Shown here: positions 5,264 through 11,731 of the stretch, piece by piece
Layout of the letters: every line of letters starts with the position of its first letter
Position numbering within the stretch: position 1 is the stretch's first letter
From: Nitrososphaera viennensis EN76
Lineage (GTDB): Archaea; Thermoproteota; Nitrososphaeria; Nitrososphaerales; Nitrososphaeraceae
Direction of reading: 5' to 3'
Assembly (NCBI RefSeq): GCF_000698785.1
Contig: NZ_CP007536.1
Span: 180,001-212,000 of the forward strand
DNA length: 32,000 bases
The notes under the pieces: model-generated
The model's database searches: none
What the model saw: only the letters and a program-made list of their open reading frames with translations
What the model was told of the DNA's origin: nothing
Translations under genes and position numbers: made by a program

Positions 5264-5352
5264 CTCGGAAATGTCAGAATAATAATAGTCAGGCACGCCG
5301 GACTGAAATTCGCGGCGTAGGTATAAAAGCAAGGCTGCGCGAATTTTAGCGA

Positions 5353-6126: not shown

Positions 6127-6131
6127 CTTGC

Positions 6132-6167
6132 AAAAAAATAACAGGTGATAGCTCGAGAGTTATCACC
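6132..6167 (-). terminator. hairpin plus T7 tract downstream of GGX-repeat gene 1
   Basis: Inverted repeat GGTGATAGCTC/GAGTTATCACC (6144-6167, one mismatch on the minus-strand RNA), followed on the minus strand by TGTTATTTTTTTG (forward A-run 6132-6138). It lies 29 nt after the stop at 6196. Confidence 0.55.
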
Positions 6168-6195
6168 CTTTTTGATATTCTATGTTCCAGTGCTT

Positions 6196-6546
6196 TCAGT
6201 GTCCACAGTGTCCACCGTGTCCGCCATGTCCCCTGTGTCCACCGTGTCCGCCATGTCCATCTTTTCCACCTTTGCCGCCTTCTCCACCTTTGCCGCCTTC
6301 TCCACCTTGTCCACCGTCTTCACAATCTCCTCCATCGCCACCATCTCCTCCATCGCCACCATCTCCTCCGCGTCCACCATCGCCACCATCTCCTCCATCG
6401 CCACCATCTCCTCCGCGTCCACCATCTCCACTGGATCGTGCATAAGCATCTGGCAGCACGATTGCATAGGATCCAATCGCAAGGCCAACGGCTAGTACAG
6501 CCAGTAAAGACACAAGGTTGCTTCCTCTTGGATATGACATCATCAT
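6196..6546 (-). CDS. secreted Gly-Gly-X repeat protein 1 (GGD/GGR/GGE/GGK/GGH triplets, His-rich C-terminus)
   Basis: Triple ATG at 6538-6546. Signal-peptide-like N-terminus MMMSYPRGSNLVSLLAVLAVGLAIGSYAIVLPDAYA. The rest is SSGDGG(RGGDGGDGGDGGDGG)x2 DCEDGGQGGEGGKGGEGGKGGKDGHGGHGGHRGHGGHGGHCGH. TATA-like GATTATAAT lies 17 nt upstream and a terminator lies downstream. Confidence 0.7.
   Translation of the reverse strand: MMMSYPRGSNLVSLLAVLAVGLAIGSYAIVLPDAYARSSGDGGRGGDGGDGGDGGDGGRGGDGGDGGDGGDGGDCEDGGQGGEGGKGGEGGKGGKDGHGGHGGHRGHGGHGGHCGH
6208..6300. repeat. coding tandem repeats (24-nt unit at 27-bp period, 6208-6258; 18 bp x2, 6265-6300)
   Basis: gtgtccaccgtgtccgccatgtcc occurs at 6208-6231 and 6235-6258. 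tccacctttgccgccttc occurs at 6265-6282 and 6283-6300. Confidence 0.9.
6334..6423. repeat. perfect 45-bp tandem duplication (each unit contains an 18-bp x2 sub-repeat)
   Basis: 6334-6378 and 6379-6423 are identical by direct reading (atcgccaccatctcctcc x2 + gcgtccacc). On the minus strand each unit encodes GGRGGDGGDGGDGGD. Confidence 0.9.
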
Positions 6547-6563
6547 AATATACAGCAGATGCT

Positions 6564-6572
6564 GATTATAAT
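6564..6572 (-). promoter_or_regulatory. TATA-like box of GGX gene 1
   Basis: Forward GATTATAAT, with 17 nt between it and the ATG at 6546. This is the same position as the boxes of genes 2 and 3. Confidence 0.45.
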
Positions 6573-6999
6573 GTCTTAGCAATAATAATTAACAATAATA
6601 ATAGATAAGACCATTATTTTGAAATCCTAACGTATAATTGTCATATTATTTGAGATTGTACTAGAAAATCCACAGGTTTCTGCCTAATATAATTTTTTCG
6701 AATAACTTCCTTCTGAATGAATAACCACTTGTCAGGGCGAAAAAGGGCTATTCCACTTCAGCCGTTTCAGACAGGCTTTTCCATCATCATTCATTCTACA
6801 GCATTTCGCACTCTGCCGAGATGTAAGAGTAGAAGGAATAATGAAGAGTACCTCTTACATAGACAGAACTCTTCTCCATTTTTCTTTTTGAGTATCTCGC
6901 TGTCCTGTATGAAACTCAAAAAATATTCAATTCTCAAGACATGGCCTGCCGCAAGCGCAAGTGGTAAATAAAATGGCGGAGCTAATTCTTGTTTTCCTC

Positions 7000-7353
7000 C
7001 TAGCAGTCTCCGCCAGCTCCACCTGCACCACCTTCGCCGCCAGCTCCACCGGCACCGCCGCCATTGCTACCCGGTTCTCCAGGTTCTCCAGGCTCTCCCG
7101 GCTCGCCAGGTTCTCCTGGTTCTCCACAAGCTCCTCCATCGCCGCCGTCACCTCCGGCTCCGCCAGCTCCACCGGCACCACCACCTGCTCCGCCAGCTCC
7201 TCCATCGCCGCCGTCACCTCCGGCTCCGCCAGCTCCACCGGCACCATTCGCTTTAGTGGCTCCTGTGTATGCAACACCTGTGTATGCAACAGCGAGTGCA
7301 ATAACCATTAGACCAAGCCACAGAATTTGTGTCTTCGAAAGATTTTTTGACAT
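7000..7353 (-). CDS. secreted Gly-Gly-X repeat protein 2 (GGA/GGD triplets plus collagen-like (GEP)6)
   Basis: ATG at 7353. N-terminus MSKNLSKTQILWLGLMVIALAVAYTGVAYTGATKA is signal-peptide-like. The mature part is NGAGGAGGAGGDGGDGGAGGAGGGAGGAGGAGGDGGDGGAC(GEP)6GSNGGGAGGAGGEGGAGGAGGDC. It has 2 Cys, and a conserved TATA-like 11-mer lies upstream. Confidence 0.7.
   Translation of the reverse strand: MSKNLSKTQILWLGLMVIALAVAYTGVAYTGATKANGAGGAGGAGGDGGDGGAGGAGGGAGGAGGAGGDGGDGGACGEPGEPGEPGEPGEPGEPGSNGGGAGGAGGEGGAGGAGGDC
7072..7125 (-). repeat. (Gly-Glu-Pro)x6 coding repeat with synonymous variation
   Basis: Six 9-nt units. Codons vary between units (GGA/GGC, GAA/GAG, CCT/CCA/CCG) while the peptide is invariant. 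Confidence 0.85.
7129..7246. repeat. 52-bp identical direct repeat at 66-bp period
   Basis: 7129-7180 equals 7195-7246 (agctcctccatcgccgccgtcacctccggctccgccagctccaccggcacca) by direct reading. Confidence 0.9.
7262..7291. repeat. 15-bp perfect tandem duplication inside the signal-peptide region of gene 2
   Basis: cctgtgtatgcaaca x2, giving the peptide duplication VAYTG-VAYTG. Confidence 0.9.
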
Positions 7354-7371
7354 GGTATGTATATTGTTACG

Positions 7372-7382
7372 GATTTATTTAA
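7372..7382 (-). promoter_or_regulatory. TATA-like box (minus-strand TTAAATAAATC) of GGX gene 2
   Basis: Forward GATTTATTTAA, with 18 nt between it and the ATG at 7353. The identical 11-mer recurs upstream of gene 3. It sits inside the inverted repeat GGATTTA-TT-TAAATCC (7371-7386). Confidence 0.55.
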
Positions 7383-7448
7383 ATCCTTCTAAAATTGCAC
7401 ATTTATTTGGAAAAAAGAAGACTTTTTTGTAATTCCTCTATTAAATAG

Positions 7449-7477
7449 AAAAAATCGGGTGGTAAGGGTTACCACCC
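7449..7477 (-). terminator. perfect 9-bp hairpin plus T6 tract downstream of GGX gene 3
   Basis: GGGTGGTAA-GGG-TTACCACCC (7457-7477), followed on the minus strand by GATTTTTTCTATTT. It lies 40 nt after the stop at 7518. Confidence 0.6.
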
Positions 7478-7517
7478 ATTTTCGGTATGTGTATCGTGTT
7501 GGTGTTACTACTTGTTA

Positions 7518-7919
7518 CTACGCGTCTCCTCCGTCGCCGCCGTCGCCGCCGTCGCCGCCACTGCAGTCATTGTCCCTGCCTGGGCAGAAACCGCCGTCTC
7601 CTCCGTCGCCGCCGTCTCCTCCGTCGCCGCCGTCACCACCGCCACGGTGACCGTGACCGCGATCACCAGCGTCTCCGCCATCTCCGCCATCTCCGCCATG
7701 ACCGCCATAGCAGTCATTGTGTTTCCCGGGACAGAAGCCTCCATCTCCGCCATCTCCGCCATCTCCACCGCGTCCTCCATCGCTGCGGTCTTTCTTCTTC
7801 TTATGGTCTCTATCCGCGAAGGCCTTATCTACAGGCAACGCGGTCGCCGTTATCATCCCAACGAGAGCCACGAGCACAACTCCCGCCAGCACAAGTTTCG
7901 TCGTTTGGTTGTTCGACAT
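7518..7919 (-). CDS. secreted Gly-Gly-Asp repeat protein 3 with two FCPGxxNDC disulfide-loop motifs
   Basis: I trimmed to the ATG at 7919. The product begins MSNNQTTKLVLAGVVLVALVGMITATALPVDKAFA (signal-like), then DRDHKKKKDRS. Four GGD runs follow, separated by FCPGKHNDCY, RGHGHR and FCPGRDNDCS. A conserved TATA-like 11-mer lies upstream and a terminator lies downstream. Confidence 0.7.
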   Translation of the reverse strand: MSNNQTTKLVLAGVVLVALVGMITATALPVDKAFADRDHKKKKDRSDGGRGGDGGDGGDGGFCPGKHNDCYGGHGGDGGDGGDAGDRGHGHRGGGDGGDGGDGGDGGDGGFCPGRDNDCSGGDGGDGGDGGDA

Positions 7920-7938
7920 CACATACCTGATAGTGTGA

Positions 7939-7949
7939 GATTTATTTAA
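7939..7949 (-). promoter_or_regulatory. TATA-like box (minus-strand TTAAATAAATC) of GGX gene 3
   Basis: Forward GATTTATTTAA, with 19 nt between it and the ATG at 7919. Identical to the box at 7372-7382. Confidence 0.55.
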
Positions 7950-8300
7950 GTGGTTTGCAGACCGATTAAGTATATCATATTTGATAAGGCAAATCTTGAA
8001 TATCATTATGTGTAATTCGATTATCATAGAATAATTACAACGGAATTACTAAATGGGCATCTCTAATATGCATGAGGTATTTTGATGCCATGTATCAGAT
8101 CATTGACGAATTTATCAATATGACATCACCTTAACATTTTCAAGGCTGAGCCTCTCTAGGCAGATTTTGCAAGCCTGTTCACTTACTTTTGGCTAAAAGG
8201 CAATTACACCACACACGTCGAGTATCTAGCACAAGCCTCTGCCAAAAGTAGTCAAGGTGCTCTTGCAGGACGTCATGAAGCGTATACGCATATGCGTGGC

Positions 8301-8501
8301 TCAATCCTGCTTTTTTAGAGACTCTAACTTCTGAGAAAGGTCGTCTAGATATTTCAAACGCTTCACCCGCCATTCTCTTTTTTTAACCTCATTCGGGTTT
8401 TTGAGCATCAACAACATGACGTACCGTTCCTCTTGAGTTAGTAGTTCTAATAATGCGTCAATATCCGAAGGTGTAAGCGTTGTCAGATTCTTTGGAACCA
8501 T
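8301..8501 (-). CDS. hypothetical small helical protein (weak; AT-rich island)
   Basis: 66-codon ORF MVPKNLTTLTPSDIDALLELLTQEERYVMLLML..., A/T-ending codons unlike the flanking genes. Inverted repeat GTTATCA-N6-TGATAAC (8531-8550) lies 30-50 nt upstream. It is overlapped by two other out-of-frame minus-strand ORFs. Confidence 0.3.
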   Translation of the reverse strand: MVPKNLTTLTPSDIDALLELLTQEERYVMLLMLKNPNEVKKREWRVKRLKYLDDLSQKLESLKKQD

Positions 8502-9892: not shown

Positions 9893-11731
9893 TCACCCTC
9901 CCTGTCCTGCAAAAAAGTCAAGGAGCGTCCGCTGCGCCTCCTGCCTCCCGGGGTGGCTCAGGTTGGTGACGCGCAGGCCGACCTTTCGGACCGGCGCGTC
10001 AAGGTCAAACCTGTCGACCAGCTGCGGAATTGCCGCAAGGATGCTCTCGCGCCTCTGCTGCGGACCCTGGTACGACATCTCTCTCGTCTCGATGGAAAAG
10101 TCGGCCCTGACTATCTTTGCGCCCACCGTGCGAAACAGGTAGCCATGCCCTGCCACCCTGGCGTACAGCTCGTCAGAAAGGGCGGTCAGTTCTGCAAGGA
10201 CCTCCTTTCTGCCCTTTGCATGTACTTCAAGGCTGTGCTCCGTGCTTATCGAGACGTGGTCCTCCCTTGGAACGACGGGGTCGCTGTCTGCGCCTGTTGC
10301 CACCTGCCACATCCACAGGCCGTTTCTGCTGCCAAAGCGCGACGTCAGCTTTTGCACGTCGCATGCCGCAAGCTGGCCTATGGTTGCGATGCCTATCTTT
10401 TTCAGCTCCTGCTGGGTCTTGGGGCCGATGCCTGAGATCCTGCCTACCTCGAGAGGCGCAAGGAAATCCTGCAGCCTGTCAGGATAGGCCACGGTGATGT
10501 CGTCAGGCTTTTTGAAATCAGACGCTATCTTGGCCGCCGACTTGGAAGGCGCCACTCCTATCGAGACTGAAAGGCCGCACCTCTCCCTTATCGCCCTCTT
10601 GATCGACGACGCGTACTCGTAGGGGCTTGCGTCGCCGGCAGCGGCCCTTGCCGTGCAGTCCAGGAACGCCTCGTCTATGCTTGCCTGCTCTATCACGTCT
10701 GCAAACCCTGAAAGGACTTCCATCACCTTCTCGGACACTTGCTTGTAGTACGCAATGTCGACTGGCCGGAGGTCCATATCGGGGCACAGCGCCAGCGCCC
10801 TTGCAAGCGGCATGGCCGACCTGACGCCAAACCTGCGCGCCTCGTACGAGCAGGACGATACCACGCCGCGCGTTATCTTGCCGGCAGGCTGGTCAGTCAT
10901 TATCACGGCGTGCGGCCTGCCCTTGAGGGCCGGCTCGCGCAGCTCCTCGCAGGAAGGGTAAAAGGCGTTGAGGTCGACGCAGAGGATCATCCTGCTGCCT
11001 GGGGACCACCTTGGCGCAGGCACGGGCAGGGCAGGGGCAGGCATGGGGCCGGCGTACTTGCGCTCTGGCAGGCCAAGGTGCGTGAGCGCGGCGTTTGCGC
11101 CGCCCGGGCTGTCTGCGATTATTATCGACATGTCAACCTGCCCATCCTGCCCCGCTTCTTTGAGGGCCATTTCAAACTCGGCCTTCCAGTTGCCGGCGTT
11201 GCCTGAAAGCCTGAGAAAAATGAAATCCGACGTGATGGCGACAGCAGCTTCTTGTACGTTCCTTCCACTCCTCCAGTACATGGCCGCGCCGTGCCTCCTC
11301 AGTACGTTGTACGTGGTGTCTTGAAACCATGAGGGGTGGGCAAAGTCGAGGATTGCCGAGTAGCCGTGGTAGGTGGAGGTGGCAAGCACTCTGTCAAGCC
11401 AGCGCCGCCCGTCCTGAAGTGTGAGGCCCTGCGGCGTCCTTATCACCACCGCAAGCGTCTTTTCCTCTATCGGCCTGAAAGCTTCAAGCAGGTTTCCAAG
11501 CTCGACGCTATCCTCTTCTGCTGCTGCCTGCTCTGGTATCCTGACGACAAAGCGAAAGCCCTCTGGCGTCTCGTGCGCCCACCTCCAGAACGAGTGCTCG
11601 TAGGTGGCCGGCACGCCCACCTCGACGACGTCAAACACCCGGGAATAGTGGGAAAGGTACTCCCTTGGCGCAAGCGCCTGCGGGTAAAAGTTGCCAAACC
11701 TCCACCCTGCGCACCCGACGAAATGCTTCAA
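9893..11731 (-). CDS. dinB: DUF72 domain fused in-frame to Y-family DNA polymerase IV (DinB/Dpo4)
   Basis: 612-codon uninterrupted ORF. Residues 1 to about 215 look like DUF72 (FVGCAGWRFGNFYPQALAPREYLSHYSRVFDVVEV). A Pro-rich linker PMPAPALPVPAPRW follows. From M248 (ATG 10990) the product is MILCVDLNAFYPSCEELR...SSCSYEARRFGVRSAMP...SIDEAFLD, a canonical DinB/Dpo4 palm. Confidence 0.85.
   Translation of the reverse strand: MKHFVGCAGWRFGNFYPQALAPREYLSHYSRVFDVVEVGVPATYEHSFWRWAHETPEGFRFVVRIPEQAAAEEDSVELGNLLEAFRPIEEKTLAVVIRTPQGLTLQDGRRWLDRVLATSTYHGYSAILDFAHPSWFQDTTYNVLRRHGAAMYWRSGRNVQEAAVAITSDFIFLRLSGNAGNWKAEFEMALKEAGQDGQVDMSIIIADSPGGANAALTHLGLPERKYAGPMPAPALPVPAPRWSPGSRMILCVDLNAFYPSCEELREPALKGRPHAVIMTDQPAGKITRGVVSSCSYEARRFGVRSAMPLARALALCPDMDLRPVDIAYYKQVSEKVMEVLSGFADVIEQASIDEAFLDCTARAAAGDASPYEYASSIKRAIRERCGLSVSIGVAPSKSAAKIASDFKKPDDITVAYPDRLQDFLAPLEVGRISGIGPKTQQELKKIGIATIGQLAACDVQKLTSRFGSRNGLWMWQVATGADSDPVVPREDHVSISTEHSLEVHAKGRKEVLAELTALSDELYARVAGHGYLFRTVGAKIVRADFSIETREMSYQGPQQRRESILAAIPQLVDRFDLDAPVRKVGLRVTNLSHPGRQEAQRTLLDFFAGQGG

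What the first reader, a model, noticed from the sequence alone, without database searches (positions are those of the whole stretch)
6132..7949. Tandem cluster of three paralogous secreted (Gly-Gly-X)n mini-proteins, each an independent transcription unit
Three same-strand genes (6196-6546, 7000-7353, 7518-7919) each encode a Sec-type signal peptide ending in AYA, TKA or AFA. Behind it lies an 85-100 aa mature region made almost only of GGX triplets (X = D, A, R, K, E, H), plus one (GEP)6 run and 2 or 4 cysteines. Each gene has a TATA-like box 17-19 nt from its ATG, which implies a leaderless mRNA. Genes 1 and 3 have a hairpin plus oligo-T terminator. AT-rich spacers separate the genes.

The composition and Cys spacing (GCPG/PGC-like turns between 3-5-triplet runs) resemble snow-flea antifreeze protein and other polyproline-II/polyglycine-II bundle proteins. 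Alternatively, they could be polyanionic cation-binding coat or pseudo-periplasm proteins. I know of no described function for such a family in archaea.
Basis: partly seen in the sequence, partly recalled or inferred. Interest (0 to 1): 0.85.

Follow-up and report, generated by a model that had tools for sequence, protein, structure and literature searches.

The report
Mis-annotated secreted glycine-aspartate repeat mini-proteins
A soil ammonia-oxidising archaeon (Nitrososphaera viennensis) carries three real but wrongly annotated or unannotated small genes for exported, very acidic, glycine-rich repeat peptides whose function is unknown and whose likeness to insect antifreeze protein is only compositional.

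Summary
Three minus-strand ORFs (6196-6546, 7000-7353, 7518-7919) each encode a Sec-type signal peptide followed by an 80-98 aa Gly-rich, acidic repeat region with 2, 2 and 4 Cys. Each has its own TATA box 18-20 nt before the ATG, and genes 1 and 3 have hairpin/oligo-T terminators.

The window is Nitrososphaera viennensis. Public gene models use a different frame or have no model, so the true proteins are missing from protein databases. The GGX frame is the coding one. N. evergladensis has orthologues of proteins 2 and 3 with conserved signal peptides, Cys and promoters. In the FCPGxxNxC loops, substitutions in invariant codons are all third-position.

The syntenic unit also includes a conserved 66-aa ORF and, in N. 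evergladensis, an archaeal signal peptidase I gene, of which N. viennensis keeps only a remnant. The three proteins are not statistically homologous to each other. No known family matches.

Similarity to snow-flea antifreeze protein disappears after composition correction, and AlphaFold2 gave no confident fold. Expression in published datasets is low and is not induced by copper limitation.

My best guess is exported polyanionic, disulfide-stapled cation/metal binders, but this is untested. Architectural analogues occur in Nitrosocosmicus. Interest is moderate.

The parts
6196..6546 (-). Gene 1 (P1), 116 aa. Signal peptide (cleavage predicted after AYA36), then (GGD/GGR)n, Cys, (GGE/GGK)n, a GGH-rich tail and Cys-Gly-His.
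   Evidence: ORF and translation. Signal-peptide geometry and Cys positions 75 and 114. No orthologue found. Public gene calls use another frame, 6180-6443/6449.
6565..6573 (-). TATA-like box CATTATAAT, 18 nt upstream of the gene 1 ATG.
   Evidence: Upstream sequence. The same box-to-start geometry is seen at other genes in the window.
6130..6167 (-). Gene 1 terminator: hairpin 6144-6167 followed, on the minus strand, by TGTTATTTTTTTGC.
   Evidence: Folding gives -10 kcal/mol, z -2.3.
6775..6846 (-). Remnant of the promoter and first codons of a signal peptidase I gene. It is intact at this position in N. evergladensis. The frame is broken here, and a hairpin (6746-6763) plus T5 follows.
   Evidence: 82% identity to L001 8365-8438. 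The Ne gene matches TIGR02228 above its cutoff.
7000..7353 (-). Gene 2 (P2), 117 aa. Signal peptide (cleavage predicted after TKA35), then (GGA/GGD)n, Cys76, (GEP)6, SNG, (GGA/GGE)n and a C-terminal Cys117.
   Evidence: Orthologue in N. evergladensis at L001 8603-8842 (BLASTP 5e-4). The public model AIC14392.1/WP_075053619.1 is in another frame, 6927-7247.
7373..7382 (-). TATA-like box TTAAATAAAT, 19 nt upstream of the gene 2 ATG.
   Evidence: An identical box sits upstream of the N. evergladensis orthologue.
7443..7478 (-). Gene 3 terminator: hairpin GGGTGGTAACCCTTACCACCC (7456-7478) plus oligo-T.
   Evidence: Folding gives -16.4 kcal/mol, z -4.3. A homologous GGTGGTAA... hairpin follows both N. 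evergladensis P3 genes.
7518..7919 (-). Gene 3 (P3), 133 aa. Signal peptide (cleavage predicted after AFA35), a basic/His-containing start, then four GGD runs separated by two FCPGxxNDC loops (Cys-x6-Cys) and a central RGHGHRG.
   Evidence: Orthologues NTE_02616 (P0001) and L001 8992-9270 (BLASTP 2e-18 and 8e-15). Codon-position test on the loops. Public gene calls use another frame, 7508-7780.
7940..7949 (-). TATA-like box TTAAATAAAT, 20 nt upstream of the gene 3 ATG.
   Evidence: It is identical in N. evergladensis P3a.
7920..8231 (-). Conserved non-coding region upstream of gene 3. It is about 76-80% identical to N. evergladensis, and its last 100 nt are 88% identical, more than the signal-peptide coding part. 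It contains inverted repeats (TATCAaataTGATA; GTAATT...AATTAC).
8301..8501 (-). Conserved 66-aa ORF with no signal peptide, helical and basic in character. It lies upstream of the cluster in both species. Its function is unknown; it may be a partner or regulator.
   Evidence: The DNA block is 87.6% identical to L001 10905-11199. No hit in Pfam, NCBIfam, PHROGs or PADLOC.

Best explanation
These are three genuine protein-coding genes of Nitrososphaera viennensis that public annotation reads in the wrong frame or omits.

Shown at sequence level:
- Each gene has its own TATA-box promoter at leaderless distance from the ATG, and genes 1 and 3 end at a hairpin/oligo-T terminator.
- Each product has a Sec-type signal peptide with an AxA-like signal peptidase I site.
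- In N. evergladensis an archaeal signal peptidase I gene directly follows the cluster.

Inferred:
- The exported 80-98 aa peptides have almost no hydrophobic residues, no membrane anchor and no glycosylation sequon.
- They are 45-58% Gly and strongly acidic (net -8 to -12), with Asp or Glu at every third position.
- They carry His clusters (the GGH tail of P1, RGHGHRG in P3) and an even number of Cys, which would form disulfides outside the cell.
- In P3 these would be local Cys-x6-Cys loops. In P1 and P2 they would bracket a segment of about 38-40 residues.

My committed reading is that they act outside the membrane, in the pseudo-periplasm, on the S-layer or in the biofilm matrix. There they would be flexible, multivalent binders of divalent cations or metals (Ca, Cu, Zn, Ni), possibly becoming ordered (PPII-like) only when cations neutralise the carboxylate ladders.

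The repeat arrays change quickly by unit gain and loss, while the signal peptides, Cys positions, loops and promoters are conserved.

Confidence differs by level. That the genes are real, in this frame, and exported: about 0.85-0.9. The cation/metal-binding function: about 0.35-0.4.
For: Frame and reality:
- Orthologues of P3 (two copies) and P2 exist in N. evergladensis, with conserved signal peptides, Cys and motifs.
- Across six FCPGxxxxC loops, variable DNA columns fall 2/3/8 by codon position. Within the invariant F, C, P, G and C codons they fall 0/0/4. The annotated frame gives unrelated peptides and the third frame has stops.
- The two N. evergladensis P3 copies are identical from the ATG onward but unrelated upstream.

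Transcription units:
- The TTAAATAAAT boxes are conserved 19-20 nt before the ATG.
- The same geometry is seen at Pfam-supported genes in the window.
- Terminator hairpins are conserved.

Export:
- Tripartite signal peptides and -3/-1 sites.
- The adjacent TIGR02228 signal peptidase I in N. evergladensis, and its remnant in N. viennensis.

Chemistry:
- Composition, charge, even Cys counts, 0-3 hydrophobic residues, no sequons.
- Tandem GGH repeats bind Cu(II) and Zn(II) through imidazoles in shepherin I (PMC10698721).

Other:
- Architecturally similar clustered secreted Gly-repeat mini-proteins occur in Ca. Nitrosocosmicus and in another soil contig.
- The gene-2 locus rises modestly in biofilm (log2FC 0.96, padj 0.0097; PMC12448741 supplement).
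Against: - No metal- or cation-binding experiment or predicted binding fold exists. The function is inferred from composition only.
- Expression in published N. viennensis datasets is low. NVIE_002090 is at 4-6 TPM, rank about 2829.
- The loci I tentatively map to genes 1 and 3 are at about 4.3 and about 0.2 log2 RPKM.
- None is induced under Cu limitation. The gene-1 locus is slightly lower (-0.9, padj 0.023, above the authors' 0.01 cut-off).
- True relatives were found in only one other species, despite a full HMMER scan of 1.84 billion representatives. DNA-pattern scans of the genome and metagenome collections also found none. However, the reference genomes themselves did not come up in those scans.
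- Low-complexity ORFs can persist without strong function.
- Repeat-run lengths are not conserved between orthologues.
Confidence: 0.4

Rival explanations
1. The mature peptides fold into polyproline-II/polyglycine-II helical hairpins or bundles stapled by disulfides, like springtail antifreeze proteins. They would act as a structural or ice- or surface-binding protein.
For: - Gly tripeptide periodicity is as strong as or stronger than in sfAFP (best-register Gly fraction 0.93, 0.70 and 0.64, against 0.78).
- Cys bracket segments of similar length: 38, 40 and 41 residues in P1, P2 and P3, and 35 in NeP2. Each has a central register-breaking turn (KDG, SNG, RGHGHRG, GGG), giving two arms of roughly equal length.
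- P2 has Ala at most X positions and a Pro-rich (GEP)6 arm.
- Free-standing PPII bundles are known (PMC12227593).
Against: - Similarity to sfAFP vanishes after composition correction (E 80-250).
- No PDB match to any PPII-bundle protein.
- AF2 gave pLDDT 48 and no structure for P3 and P2, though these were single-sequence runs and so weak evidence.
- Asp stripes would repel each other without counter-ions. There is no small-residue or hydrophobic face, except partly in P2.
- Run lengths in NeP3b (16, 9 and 4 residues) do not fit a regular bundle.
- From my own knowledge, the hosts are mesophilic or subtropical, which argues against antifreeze.
Confidence: 0.15
2. They are building blocks of an extracellular matrix or envelope layer. 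These would be mini-collagen-like or Gly-rich peptides that cross-link through terminal cysteines and cations, helping aggregation, biofilm formation or attachment to mineral surfaces.
For: - P2 and NeP2 have collagen-like (GEP/GQP)n runs flanked by Cys. The only PDB sequence matches are collagen-like peptides (E 0.003-0.06).
- The Nitrosocosmicus analogues mix GESGQPGE and GQD repeats with GGD/GGS runs.
- The gene-2 locus is about 2-fold up in biofilm.
Against: - Transcript levels are very low even in biofilm (6 TPM).
- The collagen-like runs are short (6 triplets), with no trimerisation domain and no Pfam Collagen hit.
- No glycosylation sequons or anchoring signals.
Confidence: 0.15
3. They are secreted antimicrobial or competition peptides. 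For example, P1 could be a precursor whose acidic (GGD)n part masks a shepherin-like Gly/His-rich active tail.
For: - The P1 tail GHGGHGGHRGHGGHGGHCGH resembles shepherin I (GGH)n, an antimicrobial peptide activated by Zn(II).
- The genes are small and secreted, evolve fast and are lineage-specific.
- Low basal expression would fit an inducible weapon.
Against: - No immunity, processing or dedicated export genes are nearby.
- Whole mature peptides are strongly anionic.
- P2 and P3 have no cationic or amphipathic segment.
- No homology to any known bacteriocin or archaeocin family.
Confidence: 0.1
4. The GGX frame is not translated. Either the frame chosen by the annotation pipelines ('EMAEMAEM...') is the real product, or the tracts are non-coding G-rich minisatellites.
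For: - All six frames are open across the repeats.
- Gene callers picked the other minus-strand frame in several records.
- Expression is low.
- No peptide evidence is available.
Against: - Only the GGX frame connects an ATG at promoter distance, a signal peptide, conserved Cys motifs and a stop just before the terminator.
- The substitution pattern in the loops is synonymous only in that frame.
- The alternative frame is not conserved between species.
- N. evergladensis annotation uses the GGX frame.
Confidence: 0.05

Closest known systems
Springtail (snow flea) glycine-rich antifreeze protein, sfAFP (PDB 2PNE/3BOG)
   Same: A small secreted protein of about 80 aa, about half Gly, with tripeptide periodicity, GGX triplets, a few Cys forming disulfides and CPG/PGC motifs.
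   Different: - No homology once composition is corrected.
- sfAFP is near neutral with many Ala, Val, Thr and Ser. These peptides are 15-23% Asp/Glu with net charge -8 to -12.
- No predicted bundle.
- No cold habitat.
Bacterial collagen-like proteins / cnidarian minicollagens ((G-X-Y)n with flanking Cys)
   Same: P2 and its orthologue have (GEP/GQP)n runs flanked by Cys. They show weak PDB sequence matches to collagen-like peptides.
   Different: - Only 6 (Nv) or 2x5 (Ne) triplets.
- No trimerisation or Cys-rich domain.
- No Pfam Collagen hit.
- P1 and P3 have almost no Pro.
Shepherin I and other Gly/His-rich peptides ((GGH)n)
   Same: The P1 C-terminal 20 residues are a GGH-type repeat. Such repeats bind Cu(II) and Zn(II) via imidazoles (PMC10698721).
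   Different: - Shepherins are plant peptides cut from a larger precursor and are cationic.
- P1 as a whole is anionic.
- P1 has Cys and a long (GGD)n part.
- No homology has been shown.
RTX / GGXGXD calcium-binding beta-roll repeats and mycobacterial PE_PGRS Gly-rich repeats
   Same: Gly-Gly-x-Gly-x-Asp-like strings in exported proteins, with Asp carboxylates as plausible Ca ligands.
   Different: - The defining hydrophobic position of the nonapeptide is absent: the mature parts have 0-3 hydrophobic residues.
- No Pfam hit.
- These use a Sec signal, not type I or type VII secretion.

Membership tests
Springtail PPII-bundle antifreeze proteins (sfAFP-like) | Detectable sequence relationship to sfAFP or other solved PPII-bundle proteins | tested here: not met
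   phmmer against PDB found no PPII-bundle protein at E<=10. BLASTP against verified 2PNE_A gives E 80-250 with composition correction.
Springtail PPII-bundle antifreeze proteins (sfAFP-like) | Gly at every third residue over most of the chain | tested here: met
   Best-register Gly fraction is 0.93 (P1), 0.70 (P2) and 0.64 (P3), against 0.78 for sfAFP.
Springtail PPII-bundle antifreeze proteins (sfAFP-like) | Compact bundle of antiparallel PPII helices | tested here: inconclusive
   AF2 single-sequence models of mature P3 and P2 gave mean pLDDT 48 with no structure. No deep alignment could be built.
Springtail PPII-bundle antifreeze proteins (sfAFP-like) | Near-neutral protein with a flat face of small or hydrophobic residues (Ala/Thr/Val) | tested here: not met
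   Small residues are 2-17% against 26%. Acidic residues are 15-23% against 4%. Net charge is -8 to -12 against +1.
Springtail PPII-bundle antifreeze proteins (sfAFP-like) | Thermal hysteresis / ice recrystallisation inhibition | not testable with these tools
   Needs recombinant protein.
Collagen-like triple-helix proteins | Long uninterrupted (G-X-Y)n with frequent Pro, recognised by Pfam Collagen | tested here: not met
   No Pfam family at E<=0.01. Only (GEP)6 in P2. PDB matches to collagen peptides are weak (E 0.003-8).
Collagen-like triple-helix proteins | Non-collagenous trimerisation domain | tested here: not met
   Apart from the signal peptide, the mature peptides consist of repeats only.
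RTX-type Ca-binding beta-roll | Nonapeptide GGXGXDXUX with a hydrophobic residue at U | tested here: not met
   The mature parts have 0-3 hydrophobic residues. No HemolysinCabind hit.
Gly/His-rich metal-binding antimicrobial peptides (shepherin type) | Tandem GGH repeats | tested here: met
   The P1 tail is GHGGHGGHRGHGGHGGHCGH. P2 and P3 lack it.
Gly/His-rich metal-binding antimicrobial peptides (shepherin type) | Cationic peptide with antimicrobial activity | not testable with these tools
   Whole mature P1 has net charge -8. Activity needs an assay.
Sec / signal peptidase I substrates | Tripartite signal peptide: basic n-region, hydrophobic h-region, c-region with small residues at -3 and -1 | tested here: met
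   The n-region is +1 to +4, followed by 22-24 uncharged residues, then AYA, TKA or AFA at 33-36. This holds in all six proteins of the two species. It is a rule-based reading, as no SignalP was available.
Sec / signal peptidase I substrates | Experimental cleavage and export | not testable with these tools
   The only indirect support is the adjacent archaeal signal peptidase I gene in N. evergladensis.

The most novel reading that the evidence does not exclude
The peptides are the first free-standing archaeal PPII/polyglycine-II (or mini-collagen-like) folds. They would be disulfide-bracketed two-arm modules of about 38-41 residues that stay disordered until divalent metal ions neutralise the Asp ladders, then snap into hairpins or bundles. 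This would give soil ammonia oxidisers a switchable extracellular metal buffer or matrix element.
Probability: 0.12. Interest if true: 0.8.

Novelty: new variant of a known kind. Interest (0 to 1): 0.45.

Why it matters
N. viennensis is the model soil ammonia-oxidising archaeon. Here three of its genes are read in the wrong frame or are missing from reference annotation, and a conserved 66-aa neighbour also appears to lack a RefSeq model. As a result their products are invisible to every proteomic and comparative study that relies on those databases.

The peptides are exported, extremely acidic, Gly-rich and Cys-stapled. They have architectural analogues in Nitrosocosmicus, so they may be an overlooked component of the envelope or matrix chemistry of soil AOA. 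These organisms depend on copper and on cation handling at the S-layer.

The finding also shows how low-complexity repeats mislead both gene callers and short-read assemblers. If the peptides turned out to form metal-dependent PPII structures, they would be a new and very simple model for that rare fold. As things stand the function is unproven and expression is low, so the value is moderate.

Tried and rejected
1. Exact look-ups of the three proteins failed. The reason is that public gene calls use another frame.

2. Word-indexed homology searches were swamped by GGD words. P3 found only NTE_02616. A chimeric query of the three N-termini found nothing. P1 found only compositional analogues.

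3. A full HMMER scan with a P3 profile found only the N. evergladensis protein plus unrelated collagen-like or GGY proteins.

4. The search for related loci on genomes failed at its tblastn confirmation step. DNA-pattern scans of genomes and metagenomes gave only chance hits: a DNA polymerase B in a Nitrososphaeraceae MAG and a eukaryote-like contig. The reference genomes themselves did not come up, so absence is weak evidence.

5. AF2 on mature P3 and P2 gave pLDDT 48. No fold search was run because the models are meaningless.

6. The apparent repeat-number 'variants' are probably not polymorphism. These are the 45-bp deletion in L002, L022 and L023, and the shorter gene-2 call (84 against 106 aa, consistent with loss of one 66-bp repeat unit) in L022 and L023. 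The aligned flanks have zero mismatches, and one contig comes from a synthetic mock-community assembly, so repeat collapse is the likely cause.

7. Homology between P3 and the L024 proteins was not supported (BLASTP E 80).

8. A viral or mobile origin has no support. There are no relatives of the 66-aa ORF in viral contigs, no PHROG or PADLOC hits and no tRNA.

None of those tracts sits in a small ORF that combines a signal-peptide-like N-terminus with a Gly-rich body (only 2 of 34 small ORFs had such an N-terminus).

10. Rfam found no RNA family in the window.

11. The long upstream extension of the gene 3 ORF (start at 8027) was rejected. Its interspecies differences are mostly non-synonymous, it contains the TATA box, and the second N. 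evergladensis copy diverges right at the ATG.

Full report
**1. What is there**

The region holds three minus-strand ORFs at 6196-6546, 7000-7353 and 7518-7919.

- Each begins with a short basic n-region, a 22-24 residue uncharged hydrophobic stretch and a small-residue -3/-1 site (AYA|RSS, TKA|NGA, AFA|DRD).
- The remaining 80, 82 and 98 residues are 45-58% Gly. Of these, 58-79% lie in GGX triplets, with X mostly Asp (P1, P3) or Ala/Asp (P2).
- The net charges are -8, -12 and -12, and the Cys counts are 2, 2 and 4.
- The mature parts have 0-2 hydrophobic residues and no N-glycosylation sequon.
- P2 carries (GEP)6. P1 ends in GHGGHGGHRGHGGHGGHCGH. P3 has two FCPGxxNDC (Cys-x6-Cys) loops.
- Tandem Repeats Finder shows 9-, 18-, 27-, 45- and 66-bp periodicities confined to these genes.
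- They are the only ORFs in the 32-kb window that combine a signal-peptide-like N-terminus with at least 30% Gly.

**2. Organism and annotation**

A neighbouring gene product is identical to one on Nitrososphaera viennensis genomes (CP103305, CP104300). The region itself is 100% identical.

In those records the gene callers placed all three genes in another minus-strand frame, giving 'EMAEMAEM'-type products of 87-89, 106 and 90 aa. After coordinate conversion these lie at window 6180-6443/6449, 6927-7247 and 7508-7780. The gene-2 mis-call is deposited as AIC14392.1/WP_075053619.1. In a dataset keyed to RefSeq tags only the gene-2 locus appears, so genes 1 and 3 seem to have no RefSeq model. 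This explains why exact look-ups of the true proteins failed.

**3. Which frame is real**

- *Ca.* N. evergladensis has a matching cluster. It has one orthologue of P2 (L001 8603-8842) and two of P3 (L001 8992-9270, and NTE_02616 at 10001-10312). Signal peptides, Cys and loop motifs are conserved. Composition-corrected BLASTP gives 8e-15, 2e-18 and 5e-4.
- Across six FCPGxxxxC loops the variable DNA columns fall 2/3/8 by codon position. Within the invariant F, C, P, G and C codons they fall 0/0/4.
- The annotated frame translates the same DNA into unrelated peptides, and the third frame has stop codons.
- The two N. evergladensis P3 copies are identical for 105 nt from the ATG and unrelated upstream, which fixes the start codon.

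I therefore regard the GGX frame as established at the sequence level. Peptide evidence is still missing.

**4. Transcription units**

- A TTAAATAAAT box ends 19-20 nt before the ATG of genes 2 and 3 in both species. Gene 1 has CATTATAAT 18 nt before its ATG.
- Pfam-supported genes elsewhere in the window show the same layout: an A/T box ending about 20-25 nt before the start and no Shine-Dalgarno sequence. So this is the ordinary leaderless geometry of this genome.
- Genes 1 and 3 are followed by hairpins plus oligo-T (-10 kcal/mol, z -2.3; -16.4 kcal/mol, z -4.3).
- Related GGTGGTAA hairpins follow both N. evergladensis P3 genes.
- Gene 2 has only T-runs.
- Spacers are AT-rich, with GC 0.31-0.38 against 0.56-0.63 in the genes.

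**5. The locus is larger than the finding**

Conserved DNA blocks between the two species show a syntenic unit, although the outer flanks differ.

- The roughly 310 nt upstream of P3 are 76-80% identical. The last 100 nt are 88% identical, more than the signal-peptide coding part at 73%.
- A 66-aa ORF at 8301-8501 has a 67-aa counterpart next to the N. evergladensis cluster. The DNA block is 87.6% identical, and the ORF matches no family.
- Directly downstream of the N. evergladensis P2 lies an archaeal signal peptidase I gene (TIGR02228, 83.9 bits against a cutoff of 51.85).
- N. viennensis keeps only its promoter and first codons as a broken remnant at 6775-6846, and has gene 1 beyond it.

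**6. Relationships**

- P1, P2 and P3 are not significantly similar to one another after composition correction. They share architecture, and P2 and P3 share the promoter box.
- No orthologue of P1 was found.
- A full HMMER scan of 1.84 billion representative proteins with a P3 profile found only the N. evergladensis protein.
- DNA-pattern scans of the genome and metagenome collections gave only chance hits. The reference genomes themselves did not come up, so this absence is weak.
- Architecturally similar genes do exist in other soil AOA. A soil contig (L024) has two tandem signal-peptide-plus-GGX genes. A *Ca.* Nitrosocosmicus contig (L025/L027) has three secreted Gly-repeat proteins that mix GGD/GGS with collagen-like GESGQPGE and GQD repeats.
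- Homology of these to P1-P3 could not be shown.

**7. Known families**

- Pfam, NCBIfam, PHROGs and PADLOC give nothing.
- PDB sequence searches give nothing for P3. For P1 and P2 they give only weak collagen-peptide matches.
- I verified the sfAFP sequence against 2PNE and compared it directly. BLASTP E is 1e-15 to 1e-20 without composition correction but 80-250 with it.
- sfAFP has net charge +1, 4% acidic residues and 26% Ala/Val/Thr/Ser. P1-P3 have 15-23% acidic residues and 2-17% small residues.
- AF2 on mature P3 and P2 gave pLDDT 48 and no secondary structure. These were single-sequence runs, so I count this as inconclusive rather than negative.
- Known natural PPII bundles are listed in PMC12227593, and none is archaeal.
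- One structural hint remains unexplained. Cys bracket segments of 38, 40 and 41 residues in P1, P2 and P3 (35 in NeP2). Each has a central register break, giving two arms of roughly equal length. However, NeP3b has runs of 16, 9 and 4 residues, which do not fit a regular bundle.

**8. Expression**

- In the copper-limitation dataset (PMC7785015, Dataset S1) NVIE_002090 is the gene-2 locus. I confirmed this mapping through AIC14392 and the accession order. It is at log2 RPKM 5.2 and 4.9, not significantly different.
- NVIE_002080 and NVIE_002100 map tentatively to genes 1 and 3. They are at 4.3/3.0 (log2FC -0.9, padj 0.023) and 0.2/0.
- In the biofilm dataset (PMC12448741) NVIE_002090 is at 6.2 TPM in biofilm against 3.9 in control (log2FC 0.96, padj 0.0097, rank 2829).
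- The genes are therefore weakly transcribed in culture, not induced by Cu limitation, and slightly higher in biofilm.

**9. Mechanism**

*Shown at sequence level:* independent leaderless-type units, Sec-type signal peptides, conserved Cys and loops, and linkage to signal peptidase I in the sister species.

*Inferred:* export, cleavage after AxA, and disulfide formation outside the cell. The mature peptides would be soluble polyanions with carboxylates at every third residue and His clusters.

*My committed reading:* they are multivalent binders of divalent cations or metals in the pseudo-periplasm, on the S-layer or in the matrix, possibly ordering only when charge is neutralised. Tandem GGH repeats bind Cu(II) and Zn(II) in shepherin I (PMC10698721).

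*Rivals:* a PPII-bundle structural protein, a disulfide-cross-linked matrix or mini-collagen, an antimicrobial precursor, or non-translation of this frame. None can be decided without experiments.

**10. Verdict**

- The antifreeze/PPII-bundle idea is not supported by any test I could run. The cation-binder idea fits the chemistry but is untested.
- The family matches no described one, yet it belongs to the broad, known kind of secreted Gly-rich tandem-repeat proteins. I rate it a new variant of a known kind, with moderate interest (0.45).
- The clearest concrete result is the annotation error in a model organism and the definition of a conserved locus: 66-aa ORF, P3, P2, then signal peptidase I or its remnant.

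Noticed in passing
window 8301-8501 (-); L001 10900-11103 (-): A 66-aa ORF (MVPKNLTTLTPSDIDALLELLTQEERYVMLL...) is conserved next to the cluster in both Nitrososphaera species. The DNA block is 87.6% identical, more than the surrounding genes. It has no signal peptide and no family hit, and it appears to lack a RefSeq model. It could be a regulator or partner of the cluster.
   Followed up: partly
window 7920-8231 (-): About 310 nt of AT-rich non-coding DNA upstream of gene 3 is 76-88% identical to N. evergladensis and contains inverted repeats (TATCAaataTGATA; GTAATT...AATTAC). This is more conserved than the adjacent signal-peptide coding sequence. It could be a regulatory region or a small RNA.
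   Followed up: partly
window 6746-6846 (-): The gene 1-gene 2 spacer holds a remnant of the promoter and first codons of the signal peptidase I gene, which is intact at this position in N. evergladensis. The frame is broken, and a hairpin plus T5 follows.
   Followed up: yes
window 6180-6449, 6927-7247, 7508-7780 (-): Public gene models for this locus are in a wrong minus-strand frame (for example AIC14392.1/WP_075053619.1). Genes 1 and 3 seem to have no RefSeq model. The true proteins are absent from a 15-billion-protein collection.
   Followed up: yes
L002, L022, L023 (short-read assemblies of the same locus): These assemblies lack exactly one 45-bp repeat unit in gene 1. L022 and L023 also call gene 2 shorter (84 against 106 aa in the miscalled frame, consistent with loss of one 66-bp unit). 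The aligned flanks have zero mismatches, and one contig is from a synthetic mock community. This is most likely assembler repeat collapse rather than polymorphism.
   Followed up: yes
window 9893-11731 (-): A 612-aa ORF fuses an N-terminal DUF72 domain to a complete DinB/Pol IV translesion polymerase (IMS, HhH, IMS_C). It is annotated dbh1.
   Followed up: no
L025 171-518 (-), 1613-2128 (+), 3013-3552 (-); L027 (Ca. Nitrosocosmicus): This is a loose cluster of three secreted Gly-repeat proteins mixing GGD/GGS/GGN runs with collagen-like GESGQPGE and (GQD)n repeats. The architecture is analogous in a second genus of soil ammonia oxidisers. A glycosyltransferase lies about 8 kb away on the longer contig.
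   Followed up: partly
L024 1633-1944 (+), 2419-2775 (+) (soil metagenome contig): Two tandem genes have near-identical signal peptides (M[TK]TKAY[VI]IATALVALM) followed by GGN/GGD/GGA/GGH/GGY repeats. They look like the P3 layout, but homology is not significant.
   Followed up: partly
L001 9878-10312: In N. evergladensis the second P3 gene (NTE_02616) is an inverted duplication of the first. The first 105 nt of coding sequence are 100% identical, pointing to a recent duplication or gene conversion, yet it carries three Cys-x6-Cys loops instead of one.
   Followed up: partly
window 7262-7291 (-): A perfect 15-bp tandem duplication lies inside the gene 2 signal-peptide c-region, encoding VAYTG-VAYTG. 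It is absent from the N. evergladensis orthologue.
   Followed up: no
window 5297-5352: The divergent acyl-CoA dehydrogenase and MaoC-like genes share a 56-nt intergenic region. Each gene has an A/T box about 24-25 nt from its start, forming a compact bidirectional promoter.
   Followed up: no
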